Positions 53,877 through 59,707 of a stretch of 64,000 nucleotides of DNA are shown here, one piece after another. How positions within the stretch are numbered: position 1 is the first letter of the stretch; each line of letters opens with the position of its first letter. The position numbers and the translations under genes were made by a program. Below the pieces are notes generated by a model. That model saw only the letters and a list, made by a program, of their open reading frames with translations. It ran no database searches and was not told where the DNA came from. This DNA comes from a virus, in the IMG/VR virus record IMGVR_UViG_3300024348_000004. One strand, 5' to 3'.

Positions 53877-54088
53877 TGACTGAATATTGGAAAGTAGAAG
53901 GTCATTCATCATTAGCAAGAGATTCGGAATCTACTGCTGTGGTGAATACTGATATTAATGCTTATAGGGCGCAAAAACTTAGGAAAGAAACCTTCAAAAG
54001 ACAAGTAGAAGAGATAAATAATTTAAAGAAAGATGTTTCAGATATTAAAACATTATTAACACAACTGGTAGATAAAATTCATGGCTAA
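53876..54088 (+). CDS. Small coiled-coil conserved protein
   Basis: GTG start; 'KVEGHSSLARD..S.AVVN', 'EINNLKKDVSDIK'. Confidence 0.65.
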   Translation: MTEYWKVEGHSSLARDSESTAVVNTDINAYRAQKLRKETFKRQVEEINNLKKDVSDIKTLLTQLVDKIHG

Positions 54089-56624
54089 ACAAGTAGACCA
54101 ATACAGTACTATAGAAACATTCAGACAAGTCTTCAATGAAGTATCTTCGGATATGGGAGACACAAGTGGTCTGAGAACAGAGAGTCAAGAAACTCTTGTT
54201 GATGCAGTTAATAGTATTGAAGATAAAGCATTCTTTTTCCAAGAATATCGCTTCGTTGCAACAGCAGGTCAAACCACGTTTAGTGGTAATGATGTTGCAA
54301 ATCACGAGTTAGAATTTAAAGCTAATAGAGTTCAAGTGTATGTCAATGGTATACAAAAGAACTTTTCTAGTGAATATTCTATCAGTGGATTTGGTATACT
54401 TAACGCAACTACTTACAATTCAATTCAGTTACAGTCTGCTGCTTCAGTCGGCGATGAAGTAACCATCTTCTCATTCACAGGTTCATACTTAGGAACAGAT
54501 GCCGCTGGTTCAACAACAGGTTTTTGGTCTACTACTGCTACAGGTGATATCTATAATAATAACTCAAAAGGTGTTATCATTAACGGTGAGGTTGACCCTA
54601 GGGTAACCTCTCGTGAAAGTTCTGATATCAAAATTCAGTTAGAAGGTAAAACAAAAATCAATGGTGATGTAACCGTCCATACTGGAGGTACATTAACATC
54701 TCCAACACTTACAGATGGTAGTGGTGCTACAATTACTGGTGGTGATTACGCTGGTATTGATGCAACACTTACTGGAGACTTGAGTGTCGGCGATGCTGGT
54801 ACGTTTGGTGGTACACTTGGTGTCACAGGTAATACAACAGTTGGAGGCACATTTGGTGTTCAAGGTGCTTCAACATTATCTAGTTCATTAGATGTAACTG
54901 GTATAACAAATTTAAACAGCACGACAGAATCTTCAAGTACTTCAACAGGTGCTTTGATTGTTGATGGTGGTGTTGGAATCAAAAAGAAATTATTTGTCGG
55001 TGGGAATGTCGACTTTGCTGCTAATCTACAAGTAGATGGTAACTCAACATTAAGTGGAAGTGTTAACATTGATGGTGCTACAGATATCGATTCAACACTA
55101 GACGTTCTTAATAACACAACATTACGAGCAGATTTAGGTGTTACTGGTAATACATCAATGACAGGAACGTTGGACGTTGATGGTGCTACAACATTAGACG
55201 GAACAAGAATCGATGGTGATTTAGACCTTAACGGTAGTGCAGACATCTCTACTAACGCATTAATAGGCGGAACTTTAGGAGTTACAGGTGCTACAACATT
55301 ATCAAGTACACTAGATGTAACTGGTACTACTAACTTTAATAGCACTACTCAGTCTTCAAGTACTACTACAGGTGCAGTTAGAATTGATGGCGGTCTTGGA
55401 ATTGCAAAGAATACTCATGTTGGCGGAACACTTGGAGTTACAGGAAATACTTCTCTTGGCGGAACACTTGGAGTTACAGGAAATACTTCTGTTGGCGGAA
55501 CGCTTGGAGTTACAGGACTTACATCTTTAAGTGATGCATCTTTGAGTGGTACACTAGACGTAACTGGTCAAACAAATTTAAATAATACTGCACAATCAAC
55601 ATCTTTGTCAAGTGGTGCTTTGATTGTTGATGGTGGTGTTGCAATCGCAAAGAATTTAAATGTCGGTGGTAACATTACTGCTACTGGAAATATTACTGCA
55701 AACGGTAATATAACATTCGGTGATGCAGATACAGACAATATTGTTTTTAATGCTGATGTCGATTCAGGTATCATGCCAGATGACCATGAGACTTATGATT
55801 TAGGTGCTGTTGGTAAGACATGGAGGAAAATCTACGCAAAAGATTTTTATGGTGAATTGACTGGAAATGCATCTACTGCTACTGCACTTGAGACCGCAAG
55901 AACACTTGGTGGTGTATCATTTGATGGTACTGCAAATATTAACTTGCCAGGCGTAAACGCTAGTGGTAATCAAGACACAAGTGGTAATGCCGCCAGTGCT
56001 ACAATATTAGAAACTGCAAGAACTATTGGTGGAGTGTCATTTGATGGTTCTGCTGCTATTAATTTACCTGGCGTAAACACTAGTGGTAATCAAGATACAA
56101 GTGGTAATGCTGGAACAGCAACTACACTTGCCACTGCAAGAAGTATTTCAGGTCAATCATTCGATGGTTCAAGTAATATTACACTTAAAACTTCAGGCAT
56201 AACTGAAGAGACTAATCTGTACTTTACGAACGCTAGAGCAGATGCTAGAGCAGACACAAGAATTGGTGCTGCTGATATAGAAGACCTAAATAATGTTAGT
56301 AGTGGTGCAAGTAGTGGTCAGGTACTAGTGTGGAGTGGTTCTGCTTGGGCGCCAGGCGACCAAAGTACAAGTACAAGTTCTGTAGGTGAGGATGCTAACT
56401 TTGTATATTTCACAGACAATAGAGTTGCAGACACATTAAAGGTCTCAAACGGAACACCTACATATAATAATGGTATCAAATTATCATATAACGATAACGC
56501 AGACGGTGGTGACAACACTACTACCGATGGGAGAATAGATTTGGCATTAGATTATGAAATAACAAGTAGCGCACCTACAGCAGTCGGAAGTACTAGTAGT
56601 GGTCATCTATGGTTTGTGATATGA
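54081..56624 (+). CDS. Tail fibre protein
   Basis: G/T-rich 'GGTLGVTG' and 'GALIVDGGVGI' repeats, 'TARTIGGVSFDG' repeats, C-terminal 'GHLWFVI'. Confidence 0.8.
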   Translation: MAKQVDQYSTIETFRQVFNEVSSDMGDTSGLRTESQETLVDAVNSIEDKAFFFQEYRFVATAGQTTFSGNDVANHELEFKANRVQVYVNGIQKNFSSEYSISGFGILNATTYNSIQLQSAASVGDEVTIFSFTGSYLGTDAAGSTTGFWSTTATGDIYNNNSKGVIINGEVDPRVTSRESSDIKIQLEGKTKINGDVTVHTGGTLTSPTLTDGSGATITGGDYAGIDATLTGDLSVGDAGTFGGTLGVTGNTTVGGTFGVQGASTLSSSLDVTGITNLNSTTESSSTSTGALIVDGGVGIKKKLFVGGNVDFAANLQVDGNSTLSGSVNIDGATDIDSTLDVLNNTTLRADLGVTGNTSMTGTLDVDGATTLDGTRIDGDLDLNGSADISTNALIGGTLGVTGATTLSSTLDVTGTTNFNSTTQSSSTTTGAVRIDGGLGIAKNTHVGGTLGVTGNTSLGGTLGVTGNTSVGGTLGVTGLTSLSDASLSGTLDVTGQTNLNNTAQSTSLSSGALIVDGGVAIAKNLNVGGNITATGNITANGNITFGDADTDNIVFNADVDSGIMPDDHETYDLGAVGKTWRKIYAKDFYGELTGNASTATALETARTLGGVSFDGTANINLPGVNASGNQDTSGNAASATILETARTIGGVSFDGSAAINLPGVNTSGNQDTSGNAGTATTLATARSISGQSFDGSSNITLKTSGITEETNLYFTNARADARADTRIGAADIEDLNNVSSGASSGQVLVWSGSAWAPGDQSTSTSSVGEDANFVYFTDNRVADTLKVSNGTPTYNNGIKLSYNDNADGGDNTTTDGRIDLALDYEITSSAPTAVGSTSSGHLWFVI
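55420..55517 (+). repeat. 36-bp tandem repeat (~2.7 copies) in fibre gene
   Basis: TTGGCGGAACACTTGGAGTTACAGGAAATACTTCT unit, near-identical copies. Confidence 0.85.
55863..56180 (+). repeat. 120-bp (40-aa) tandem repeat (~2.6 copies) in fibre gene
   Basis: GNA..AT.LETART.GGVSFDG.A.INLPGVN.SGNQDTS. Confidence 0.8.
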
Positions 56625-56625
56625 T

Positions 56626-58236
56626 ATGGCAGATGAAATTTATATAAACATTGGCTCTACGATACAACAACCGTATCAAGGACAAGCTATTGCAACTGGT
56701 ACATCACCAGTCATAAGACAACGTATAGCTCGACAACCTGCCAATCAACAAGTACCCTTTACGTATCAGAATAGGAGTCCATTCACCTATGCTAGACAGG
56801 GACGAACGCCAGCACCATATCAGCATCAAGTTCCTGCTACATATGTTGGACAAGGTAGACAACCCTCTACCTATGTAAATCAGCAACCTAGTACGTATAG
56901 AAGTCCTGTTGATGCAAGACAACCATATATTGCTAATGCAAGACAACCGAGTACATATCAAAATCAGATTCAAACACCGTATATTGCTAATGCAAGACAA
57001 CCTAGTATCTATAACCTACAGGGTAATATTCCGTATCAGAATCCTGTTATTGCACAACAACCTTATCAAAACCAAGTAAATAAACAGATACCGTTTACGT
57101 ATACCAATCAAACAACGTATCAGTATACTGCTAATGCTCAGCAACCGTATCCATACATTGCTAATGGACAATATGTAGCACAAACACAGCAACCTTATAC
57201 ATATCCGTACATTGCGAATAGACAAAACACTGCTCAACAACCAGCGTCTTACAGACATCCTGTAATTGCAAATAGACAAACTACGATTGATAATGCTAAT
57301 CCTTCAATTGCAAATAGACAAACAGCGGTAGATGCTACATATCAAGTTATTGCACAACAACCAGCAATACAAGAATACACATATCAAGCAAACGCTCAGG
57401 CGAGTGTACAAGCGCAATCACCTTATATTGCTCAGATACAAGGTAGTTATGGGTTTAGACAACCAGCAACATATCAGTTCACTACACAATCAATTGCTCA
57501 AAGACCAGTGATATATACAGCGACTGGTAATTACCAAGCAAGTTATCAAACCTCGATACAACAACCTTACATATATCAGCAACCAAATCAAGTACCTGCT
57601 ACAGGACAAAACCAATTAGCGGTCGCTTATACGTATCCCGACCCTATAGTTGGAGAATATTTCCATGGTACAGGAAATCACCAACAGTATAGTTATGGTG
57701 GTTTGGTTGGAACAGACGAATTTGCTGCCATGGGCAGCAGACTTGGGTCATACTATACTCCAGCAGGTGTTGATGGTAATACTAACAGTGGTTCCCCTCA
57801 ATCTGGCGCAACAGGTGCTTACTTACCCCCATTCAGTGGGGTACCCGCCCAAGTTTTAGCGGGTCAAGGAACACAAGGCGTACCAACATCTTGGAAGACA
57901 ACTCAAAGAATGGGTGGACAAATGACTTGGACTGGGTTGTACTCACATGACCCAGCTGTGAATAATCATATACAATTAAAACCAAGTCAACCTATGAGAT
58001 TAAATGCTACTGGTCAGTGGAGTAGGATAGAATATGCTTACTGGAGTTATCAGAGTAATACTTGGAATCACATTAGTGGAATACCAGTGATATATATGCA
58101 AGCGGTCAATACAGGGTCTCCAACTGGCGGAATATATAATATTCAAGGGGTGAACTGGATTGTTGGTGGAGGACTACCATCAGCTCATCAGGGTTACACA
58201 GTGACTGCTGCCCCTAAACGATTGAGGTTCTATTAA
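56626..58236 (+). CDS. Q/P/Y/T-rich fibre chain A with C-terminal globular tip domain
   Basis: Residues ~16-340 repetitive with all Pro at even positions; ~195-aa non-repetitive G/W/Y-rich C-terminus. Confidence 0.75.
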   Translation: MADEIYINIGSTIQQPYQGQAIATGTSPVIRQRIARQPANQQVPFTYQNRSPFTYARQGRTPAPYQHQVPATYVGQGRQPSTYVNQQPSTYRSPVDARQPYIANARQPSTYQNQIQTPYIANARQPSIYNLQGNIPYQNPVIAQQPYQNQVNKQIPFTYTNQTTYQYTANAQQPYPYIANGQYVAQTQQPYTYPYIANRQNTAQQPASYRHPVIANRQTTIDNANPSIANRQTAVDATYQVIAQQPAIQEYTYQANAQASVQAQSPYIAQIQGSYGFRQPATYQFTTQSIAQRPVIYTATGNYQASYQTSIQQPYIYQQPNQVPATGQNQLAVAYTYPDPIVGEYFHGTGNHQQYSYGGLVGTDEFAAMGSRLGSYYTPAGVDGNTNSGSPQSGATGAYLPPFSGVPAQVLAGQGTQGVPTSWKTTQRMGGQMTWTGLYSHDPAVNNHIQLKPSQPMRLNATGQWSRIEYAYWSYQSNTWNHISGIPVIYMQAVNTGSPTGGIYNIQGVNWIVGGGLPSAHQGYTVTAAPKRLRFY

Positions 58237-58237
58237 G

Positions 58238-59356
58238 ATGGCTATAGGATTTACACAACAAAATAACCCTTTCACATTCCAACAAACGTTGAGTGTGGAA
58301 ACTGAAGGAAGAAGACCTGTACCTGCTATAGCACAACAACCAGCTACGTATTCATATCCTGCTATCGGACAACAAGAGTATCAAGTTACGTATCAACACC
58401 CTGCTAGTTACAGAACACCTGTTATCGGTACTCAACCATATACTGCAAATGCTCAAGCACAGACGACTTATCAGAGTCCATTTACATATTCAAGAACAGC
58501 ATTCAAAGAAATACAGGTAACTATACAACAAAATGCTCCGTATATAAACCAACAACCTTCTACATATCAGCATCAGAGTCCGACTACTTCACAGCAACCG
58601 TCTACTTATCAACATAGACAACCTGCTACATACCAAGTTGCATATCAACACCCGACAACATATTCTAGACAAGGTGTTGCACAAACACAGGTGTCTTATA
58701 GACATCCATTTACATATGCTAGACAAGGACAAACACCGTTTACATATACTAGAGAAGCTAGACAACCTTATATTGCTAATGCTAGACAACCTACTACATA
58801 CCCTGTAATAAGCACGAGGAATTATAATCATCAGCAACCAGCGATAACAACATATCCATATACTGCTGATGCACAGACACCGTTCACCTATCAACATAGA
58901 CAACCTAGTACTGCAGTTGCTAATGCTCAGACACCATTTACGTATCAGAATAGGAATCCATTTACATATAGGAATCCTGTAAATGCACAGACACCTTACA
59001 TTGCTAATGCACAGACACCTTATATTTTACAGAGGGCATATAACACCCCTGTTATTAGGATAACACAACAACCTTATCCGTATATTGCGAATGCACAGCA
59101 ACCTTATATTGCTAATGCTAGACAACCCACTACATACCAAGTTACGTATCAAGTTGCATATCAAGTGCAACAACCTTACATATATCAACAAGATTATAGT
59201 ACAACTAGAAGTATTGGGCCGATCGCTAAAGTTAAAGGGATATATGTAAATGATGGAAACCAAATAAAGAAACTAGATAAAGTGTACGTCAATGATAGTG
59301 GCACTGTTGAGAAGATTCACCAATCTGTTCCAACTGCACAGTTTAGTAAAACATAA
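58238..59356 (+). CDS. Q/P/Y/T-rich fibre chain B with C-terminal attachment hairpins
   Basis: Residues 11-313 with all Pro at odd positions; C-terminal 'KGIYVNDG...KVYVNDSG'. Confidence 0.75.
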   Translation: MAIGFTQQNNPFTFQQTLSVETEGRRPVPAIAQQPATYSYPAIGQQEYQVTYQHPASYRTPVIGTQPYTANAQAQTTYQSPFTYSRTAFKEIQVTIQQNAPYINQQPSTYQHQSPTTSQQPSTYQHRQPATYQVAYQHPTTYSRQGVAQTQVSYRHPFTYARQGQTPFTYTREARQPYIANARQPTTYPVISTRNYNHQQPAITTYPYTADAQTPFTYQHRQPSTAVANAQTPFTYQNRNPFTYRNPVNAQTPYIANAQTPYILQRAYNTPVIRITQQPYPYIANAQQPYIANARQPTTYQVTYQVAYQVQQPYIYQQDYSTTRSIGPIAKVKGIYVNDGNQIKKLDKVYVNDSGTVEKIHQSVPTAQFSKT

Positions 59357-59374: not shown

Positions 59375-59707
59375 ATGGCCATAATTGCAAATATATTCGT
59401 AGACCAAGGTGCTGACTTTCAGATTACTGTTGACGTTACAGATGTTAACGGTGCAATTTTGAATATGTCAGGGTATAGTGCAACAGGACAAATTCGAAAA
59501 ACTTATGAATCTAGTACAGTAGCAGCAACATTTGCTTGTACTGTAACAGATGCTACAGGACAGGTCACTATGTCACTCAGCGACACTGTAACAGCAGCTA
59601 TGAGTCCAGGCAGGTATGTTTATGACTTGGTCACAACTGATGGTAATGGTCTCAAGACACGTGTTGTTGAAGGACAAGCTATAATTACGCCGGGAGTTAC
59701 AAGATGA
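59375..59707 (+). CDS. Virion structural adaptor (BppU-N-like beta-sandwich)
   Basis: 'NIFVDQGADF', 'GRYVYDL', 'RVVEG..IITPGVT'. Confidence 0.7.
   Translation: MAIIANIFVDQGADFQITVDVTDVNGAILNMSGYSATGQIRKTYESSTVAATFACTVTDATGQVTMSLSDTVTAAMSPGRYVYDLVTTDGNGLKTRVVEGQAIITPGVTR

What the first reader, a model, noticed from the sequence alone, without database searches (positions are those of the whole stretch)
56626..59356. Two genes encoding mirror-image strands of a putative ~100 nm antiparallel beta-ribbon fibre
Seen (hand-counted): in chain A (56626) all 35 Pro in residues 16-340 are at even positions; in chain B (58238) all 35 Pro in residues 11-313 are at odd positions, i.e. an unbroken 2-residue beta periodicity. 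The spacing is mirrored: 19 A/B Pro pairs sum to exactly 341 (28/313, 44/297, 52/289, 62/279, 70/271, 80/261, 88/253, 94/247, 100/241, 108/233, 118/223, 126/215, 140/201, 156/185, 174/167, 212/129, 226/115, 280/61, 314/27). About 8 would be expected from parity alone, and 11 of the 12 Pro in A44-126 match. In the same register Tyr repeatedly lies opposite Ala/Gly (Y47/A294, Y55/A286, Y83/A258, Y91/A250, Y111/A230, Y129/A212, Y159/A182, Y177/G164, Y253/A88, Y297/G44; reciprocally A105/Y236, A123/Y218, G181/Y160, A257/Y84), so PFTYQ-type modules sit opposite PYIANA-type modules. Inference: A runs out about 330 residues (~110 nm at ~3.3 A per residue) to its C-terminal globular domain, a likely receptor-binding knob, and B runs back. 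This gives a heterodimeric stalk-and-knob fibre unlike the usual parallel homotrimeric fibres. I know of no description of this architecture.
Basis: partly seen in the sequence, partly recalled or inferred. Interest (0 to 1): 0.92.

Follow-up and report, generated by a model that had tools for sequence, protein, structure and literature searches.

The report
Two-gene zipper fibre of marine phage
Two neighbouring genes of an uncultured marine T4-like phage encode repeat proteins that match residue by residue when one is read backwards, and about 100 related gene pairs keep the match through compensating insertions and deletions, so the two chains most likely zip head-to-tail into a roughly 100 nm two-stranded fibre, a design I could not find described.

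Summary
Observation confirmed: Pro parity 35/35 and 35/35; 19 Pro pairs at sum 341 (p about 1e-4). The mirror is a family rule. Across 74 A/B pairs the register is fixed by the conserved ends, stalk lengths correlate (r 0.92-0.97), indels compensate, held-out partner identification is 15/15, and natural one-chain hairpin fusions exist.

One correction: the directly facing residues sum to 339, not 341. There, covariation peaks in 12/12 held-out clusters, Pro faces Gln/Arg, aromatics face Ala/Gly (61 pairs, no aromatic-aromatic pair), and two low-confidence AlphaFold models use that register. Side signals at plus and minus 2 match the diagonal contacts of a right-twisted two-stranded beta-ribbon with Pro at non-H-bonded sites.

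A second, paralogous pair (C/D) obeys the same code yet is orthogonal. The cassette follows a fibre gene with a constant tip motif in the baseplate/fibre region; A's head is variable. I found no PDB, Pfam, cultured-phage or literature match. Oligomeric state, virion location and receptor binding are inferred; A+B could not be folded together. This scan has already reported the family on other genomes.

The parts
54081..56624 (+). Upstream fibre gene U (847 aa); putative carrier fibre whose C-terminal tip is proposed to anchor the A/B duplex
   Evidence: PHROG tail-fibre hits to E 1e-54. In the 45 non-redundant A or fused loci where it could be read, the gene directly upstream ends in the same tip motif (almost always ..G[H]LWFV[IV]) while its length varies, about 360-890 aa
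56547..56624 (+). Conserved tip motif of U (LDYE..SSAP..VGST..GHLWFVI)
   Evidence: docking role inferred
56626..56670 (+). A residues 1-15: conserved N-terminal base segment (MxDEIYINxG..QQP)
   Evidence: near-invariant columns; lies beside B's C-terminal base in the register
56671..57645 (+). A residues 16-340: outgoing strand of the stalk; Pro all at even positions
57646..58236 (+). A residues 341-536: variable distal head domain (196 aa), no known family
   Evidence: no Pfam/PHROG/Atlas hit; unrelated to the heads of the other 14 clusters
58238..59212 (+). B residues 1-325: returning strand of the stalk; Pro all at odd positions; pairs with A at i+j=339
59213..59356 (+). B residues 326-372: conserved C-terminal base module (IGPxAKVKG..VYVN..EKIHQ)
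   Evidence: invariant columns; weak phrog_13729 hit, E 4e-5; best-modelled part, pLDDT 55-74
59375..59707 (+). Conserved 110-aa downstream gene, LtfC-like beta-sandwich; always follows B
   Evidence: PF23926 E 2e-6, phrog_3304; syntenic; role untested

Best explanation
A and B are the two strands of one long, right-twisted, two-stranded antiparallel beta-ribbon on the virion of a T4-like marine myophage. A's N-terminus and B's C-terminus form a small base. A runs out about 325 residues (roughly 105-110 nm at 3.3-3.4 A per residue, less if coiled) to a variable head, and B runs back. Facing residues (i+j=339) follow a code. On the non-H-bonded face Pro pairs with Gln/Arg, Asn with Thr, Ile with Ala/Ser/Asn/Gln. 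On the H-bonded face Tyr/Phe pairs with Ala/Gly (also Arg/Val) and Gln with Thr/Ser, while aromatic-aromatic pairs are excluded. Pro sits only where the backbone NH points outwards, so it costs no cross-strand bond and blocks edge-to-edge growth into sheets or amyloid. The irregular order of 6/8/10-residue units gives a single register and keeps the pair apart from the paralogous C/D pair of the same phage. SHOWN (computationally): complementarity, register, co-evolution, fusions, orthogonality. INFERRED: physical binding; ribbon geometry; docking of the base on the tip of upstream fibre U; use as a thin long-reach extension that presents an exchangeable adhesion/receptor-binding head.
For: Register predicted without free parameters from the two conserved ends is the top Pro-Pro offset in 58/74 pairs (33/41). 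Stalk lengths r=0.97 and 0.92 over 15 clusters; head length uncorrelated (rho 0.04). Compensating indels in both genes: -46/-46, -10/-10, +12/+12, -2/-2, and the series +8,-4,-8 and +12,+4,-10,+8. Leave-one-cluster-out partner identification 15/15 in both directions; window pair scores 501 against best non-cognate 184, A-A 153, B-B 164, parallel 34, unit-shuffle null 112+-16. Ungapped score +488 at 339 and negative at every other sum. MI and mean-field DCA peak at S-2 on both parities, with S-4 only on the Pro parity and S mainly on the other; this is the lateral-plus-diagonal pattern, since at non-H-bonded sites the diagonal partner lies at lateral sum minus 2 (PMC7961788). Fused single-chain forms are internally palindromic at the same anchor. 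AF2 strands 13-58/321-366 and 13-41/413-441 both sum to S-2. The code learned on A/B is best at S-2 in 25/26 C/D pairs, with 3 aromatic-aromatic pairs in 7894.
Against: No experimental data. Both AF2 models have mean pLDDT 38 and pTM 0.19; only the proximal 30-46 pairs and the base are modelled (pLDDT about 45-74). AF2 and the covariation analysis draw on the same family signal, although on different sequences. 16/74 pairs miss the ungapped anchor, where examined because of one-residue shifts, so bulges occur. Several fused forms score weakly (L089, L254). Sequence cannot tell one ribbon from a bundle of three. The head has no known family, and no cultured phage carries the genes.
Confidence: 0.72

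Rival explanations
1. Same pairing and register, but three A/B duplexes assemble on a trimeric U tip into a six-stranded needle or three-ribbon rope, like an enormously extended T4 gp37 needle split into two genes.
For: U matches tail-fibre families, which are normally trimers (own knowledge). The gp37 needle is six antiparallel strands from three out-and-back chains (PMC9659904), and fused A-B forms have that out-and-back topology. The Tyr-rich face could pack ribbons together.
Against: Pro occupies 21% of the outward-pointing positions on both edges (35 of 163), which would break a continuous barrel. No HxH iron motifs. No covariation at any offset beyond lateral and diagonal. No sequence match to gp37.
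Confidence: 0.18
2. B is a transient assembly chaperone or ruler that pairs with A during folding and is absent from the mature fibre.
For: Fibre genes are often followed by chaperone genes (own knowledge); B has no head.
Against: B is covalently fused to A in 21 or more loci without a conserved cleavage site being apparent. A single extended strand of A has no evident partner once B leaves: A-A scores 153 against 501.
Confidence: 0.04
3. The chains pair antiparallel but not as a beta-ribbon (for example a polyproline-II or mixed double strand, as in the antigen I/II stalk).
For: High Pro/Gln content; low AF2 confidence over most of the stalk.
Against: Strict period 2 rather than 3; parity-specific diagonal signals; AF2 strands assigned E by DSSP over 46 uninterrupted pairs.
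Confidence: 0.05
4. The mirror is a chance by-product of low-complexity repeats or of DNA duplication.
For: Both genes share a repeat vocabulary and direct DNA repeats; self-antiparallel Pro counts reach 16, although symmetric pairs are counted twice there.
Against: Shuffles, 15/15 partner identification, compensating indels and out-of-sample C/D validation.
Confidence: 0.01

Closest known systems
T4 gp37 long-tail-fibre needle (six-stranded antiparallel beta needle; PMC9659904; about 150 x 25 A, PMC3004832)
   Same: Thin antiparallel beta stalk at a fibre tip; the chain goes out to a head and returns, as in the fused A-B forms.
   Different: The needle is 15 nm, a homotrimer of one gene product, with iron-binding His sites (own knowledge). 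Here 55-180 nm, two gene products, Pro-punctuated, no HxH, no sequence match.
Streptococcal antigen I/II (P1/SpaP) stalk (PMC12701859)
   Same: Long two-strand antiparallel stalk that projects a globular adhesive head.
   Different: Intramolecular, alpha-helix intertwined with a polyproline helix; bacterial; no beta register code.
Designed and natural beta-hairpins with lateral and diagonal cross-strand preferences (PMC7961788); long hairpins in PDB 3GW6, 6PSN, 5GAQ, 6QZ9
   Same: Same chemistry and geometry; weak structural matches (Z 2.8-3.1) to the modelled ribbon only.
   Different: Tens of residues, one chain, mostly embedded in barrels or oligomers; not a free 325-pair two-gene duplex.
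Canonical phage fibres (triple beta-helix, beta-spiral, coiled coil, collagen; own knowledge)
   Same: Stalk-plus-variable-head layout in the fibre gene cluster.
   Different: Parallel homotrimers; the parallel A-B score here is 34 against 501 antiparallel.

Membership tests
Two-stranded antiparallel beta-ribbon (structural class) | Strict two-residue alternation in both strands | tested here: met
Two-stranded antiparallel beta-ribbon (structural class) | One lateral register with covariation on both faces | tested here: met
   S-2 best in 12/12 A/B clusters and 25/26 C/D pairs
Two-stranded antiparallel beta-ribbon (structural class) | Diagonal contacts of opposite sign on the two faces (right-handed twist) | tested here: met
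   DCA: S-4 on Pro parity 1.87 vs 0.10; S on the other parity 2.84 vs 1.11; geometry from PMC7961788
Two-stranded antiparallel beta-ribbon (structural class) | Continuous paired strands along the whole stalk in a model or structure | tested here: inconclusive
   AF2 gives 46 and 29 proximal pairs at the right register; the remainder has pLDDT under 50
Two-stranded antiparallel beta-ribbon (structural class) | Physical 1:1 binding with free edges | not testable with these tools
T4 gp37-type needle | Sequence or profile homology to gp37/Stf tips | tested here: not met
   no PHROG, Pfam or PDB-sequence hit
T4 gp37-type needle | HxH iron-binding motifs along the needle | tested here: not met
   2 His in stalk A, 7 in stalk B, none as HxH
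T4 gp37-type needle | Six-stranded trimeric assembly | not testable with these tools
   no multimer prediction available
T4 gp37-type needle | Structural match to the solved needle | tested here: inconclusive
   not among the matches of a low-confidence model
Antigen I/II hybrid stalk | Alanine-rich alpha-helix paired with a polyproline-II strand | tested here: not met
   both chains have the same period-2 composition and no helix is predicted in the stalk
Parallel homotrimeric phage fibres | Parallel in-register shaft of identical chains | tested here: inconclusive
   parallel A-B pairing scores 34 vs 501; A3 or B3 homotrimers cannot be scored from sequence but would not explain mirrored indels
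Receptor-binding protein | Head binds a host surface receptor | not testable with these tools
   head is variable and distal but has no family

The most novel reading that the evidence does not exclude
A free-standing protein duplex: two separately encoded chains form a single 100-180 nm two-stranded beta-ribbon whose register and partner choice are set by a short residue-pairing code, with two mutually orthogonal duplexes in one phage; a natural, programmable protein analogue of strand complementarity.
Probability: 0.6. Interest if true: 0.92.

Novelty: categorically new. Interest (0 to 1): 0.84.

Why it matters
Isolated two-stranded beta-ribbons are usually short and prone to aggregation, and known phage fibre shafts are parallel trimers. 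A 325-545-pair ribbon made from two genes would be a new fibre architecture that costs only two residues per 0.33 nm. The roughly 100 natural pairs give a readable lateral code (Pro-Gln/Arg, Asn-Thr, aromatic-small, no aromatic-aromatic) that makes sharp, cheap tests possible with short peptides, and could serve as a design rule for orthogonal protein zippers and length-defined linkers. It also poses an evolutionary puzzle: each length change in one gene must be matched at the mirror position in the other.

Tried and rejected
AF2 on two fused chains left most of the stalk unmodelled. These blanks come from low-confidence models and do not show a new fold. ESM Atlas: only unnamed viral clusters under 0.9 for B, nothing for the head. 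tblastn against 50,697 cultured/GenBank phage records: no match for B or the U tip (one E 0.9 hit). Genome contigs: only two MAG contigs, probably binned phage DNA. Nine paper searches for this architecture or motif and its parts found no description; the library omits most subscription journals. Rejected: DNA-level inverted duplication; Pro directly facing Pro (6 observed vs 168 expected at the lateral register); homodimeric antiparallel or parallel A-B pairing.

Full report
Context. The window is a piece of a T4-like myophage genome: tail tube, baseplate hub, gp5/gp6/gp7/gp8-like wedge genes, then a DUF4815 protein, a small virion protein and a run of fibre genes. Its ssDNA-binding protein is closest to Methylophilales phage Melnitz (56%) and Pelagibacter phage HTVC008M (53%); the host is unknown. 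A (536 aa) and B (372 aa) lie between an 847-aa fibre gene U and an LtfC-like gene, each separated from the gene before it by one base.

Observation. Parity (35/35 and 35/35) and the 19 Pro pairs at sum 341 are exact. Against Pro-gap shuffles maximised over all offsets the null mean is 12.4 and p is about 1e-4. The listed Tyr/small pairs are all correct. The mirror is not a DNA inverted repeat.

Family. Searches gave over 400 clusters at 90% identity and 199 representatives at 50%. Where context or taxon was available it was viral or marine-metagenomic. Four architectures occur. A-type: conserved N-terminus, stalk, variable head. B-type: stalk and conserved C-terminal base. Fused: A start, stalk, middle region, stalk, B end. 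And a paralogous C/D pair in which the base elements are swapped between the chains. Fused chains are internally palindromic at the same anchor as the window pair (P0001: 17 Pro pairs at sum 456, p 0.001).

Co-evolution. The register can be predicted with no free parameter from A's Pro16 and the residue five before B's xKVKG motif. It is the top Pro-Pro offset in 33/41 and 58/74 pairs; exceptions examined have one-residue shifts. Stalk lengths correlate over 15 clusters (r 0.97 and 0.92; the second uses a noisier end-caller) while head length does not. Close relatives show matched indels in both genes at mirror positions: -46/-46 (L038/L238), -10/-10, +12/+12, -2/-2, and the series +8,-4,-8 (L029/L062) and +12,+4,-10,+8 (L043/L123). 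A pairing matrix learned without the test cluster picks the cognate partner 15/15 times in both directions.

True register. Mutual information per offset peaks two residues short of the Pro-Pro sum on both parities (1.10/1.05 bits against 0.70/0.76), and mean-field DCA agrees. Held-out scores favour S-2 in 12/12 clusters. At S-2 Pro faces Gln or Arg (Pro-Pro 6 observed vs 168 expected), Asn faces Thr, Tyr/Phe face Ala/Gly/Arg, Gln faces Thr/Ser, and Tyr-Tyr is 0 vs 118 expected (counts symmetrised). In the window this is sum 339: 27 of A's and 29 of B's 35 Pro face Gln/Arg; there are 61 aromatic-small and 0 aromatic-aromatic pairs (33 and 6 at 341); the held-out ungapped score is +488 and negative at every other sum; the alignment runs from A22/B317 to A337/B2 with one short two-residue slip near A269-277.

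Geometry. The secondary couplings are parity-specific: S-4 on the Pro face and S on the other face. In hairpin peptides the non-H-bonded lateral pair 4/9 is accompanied by a diagonal 2/9 contact caused by the right-handed twist (PMC7961788), that is, lateral sum minus 2. This places Pro at non-H-bonded sites, where its missing NH points outwards, as a two-stranded ribbon requires (inference from established beta-sheet geometry).

Models. AF2 of two fused chains is poor overall (pLDDT 38, pTM 0.19) but gives long strands at 13-41/413-441 (sum 454, S=456) and 13-58/321-366 (sum 379, S=381), both S-2, plus a small beta base from the B C-terminus. Contacts were not displayed; pairing is read from the matching strand limits and from fold matches spanning residues 16-364.

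Second pair. Twenty-six C/D pairs have stalks of 182-544 residues with r=0.99. The A/B-derived code scores best at S-2 in 25 of them, with 3 aromatic-aromatic pairs in 7894 (173 at S). In 9/9 contigs with both pairs, A-B and C-D score far above all crossed combinations (A-B scores in-sample there). A phage 98% identical to this one carries a 525-residue C/D pair (L001/L327).

Attachment and function. Every A or fused locus read follows a fibre gene ending in the same tip motif, and C/D follows a gene with a related GDLW-type end. With the conserved A N-terminus and B C-terminus lying together in the register, this suggests a three-part base that docks the duplex on the tip of U (inferred). Heads are 104-366 aa and fall into several unrelated groups, some with Hint domains, as expected of exchangeable adhesins (inferred). 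The head here has no family.

Comparison. It works like the T4 gp37 needle or the antigen I/II stalk (a thin out-and-back stalk carrying a head) but fails the membership features of both that could be tested. No description was found in the library searched. Earlier reports of this scan describe the same family on other genomes; they are not independent evidence. In the lines shown to me I did not see the S-2 register or the diagonal signature, but those notes are truncated.

Verdict. Real, strongly selected, residue-level antiparallel complementarity between two gene products (about 0.93). A two-stranded beta-ribbon virion fibre is the best reading (0.72), a three-duplex needle the main rival (0.18). 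All structural and functional steps await experiment.

Noticed in passing
L187:179-1414: 411-aa ORF joining A1-193 to B54-273 of the L049 cluster at a shared QQPFPYIAN motif, giving a headless near-perfect hairpin; natural deletion or assembly chimera on a 1.67-kb contig.
   Followed up: partly
L327 / L321 (contigs of L001, L004): Close relatives of this phage carry a C/D pair with 525-545-residue stalks (about 175 nm) downstream of the region matching this window; earlier notes place one about 2.7 kb beyond this window's end.
   Followed up: partly
L170:10510-14858, L171:10004-14460: C/D pairs are followed by a conserved cluster including 2OG-Fe(II) oxygenases before gp13; they might modify the Pro/Tyr/Thr-rich fibre (untested).
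   Followed up: no
L025, L028, L087 (A heads); 13 of 26 C heads: Hint-type domains as or behind the head, which suggests autoproteolytic release or ligation at the fibre tip.
   Followed up: partly
L008:5702-5950; L036:4268-5022: Some loci have a small gene (82 aa, no clear family) or a gap of about 750 bp between A and B.
   Followed up: partly
P0348, P0355, P0344: Fused variants with a different repeat vocabulary (R-R-P and Y-H-N units, far fewer Pro) but the same termini; their pairing code was not analysed.
   Followed up: no
window 54081-56624: U keeps constant N- and C-termini while its middle varies from about 360 to 890 aa among relatives.
   Followed up: partly
L045 and L049 clusters: One-residue parity breaks in B (and in A of L052) imply tolerated beta-bulges in the duplex.
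   Followed up: partly
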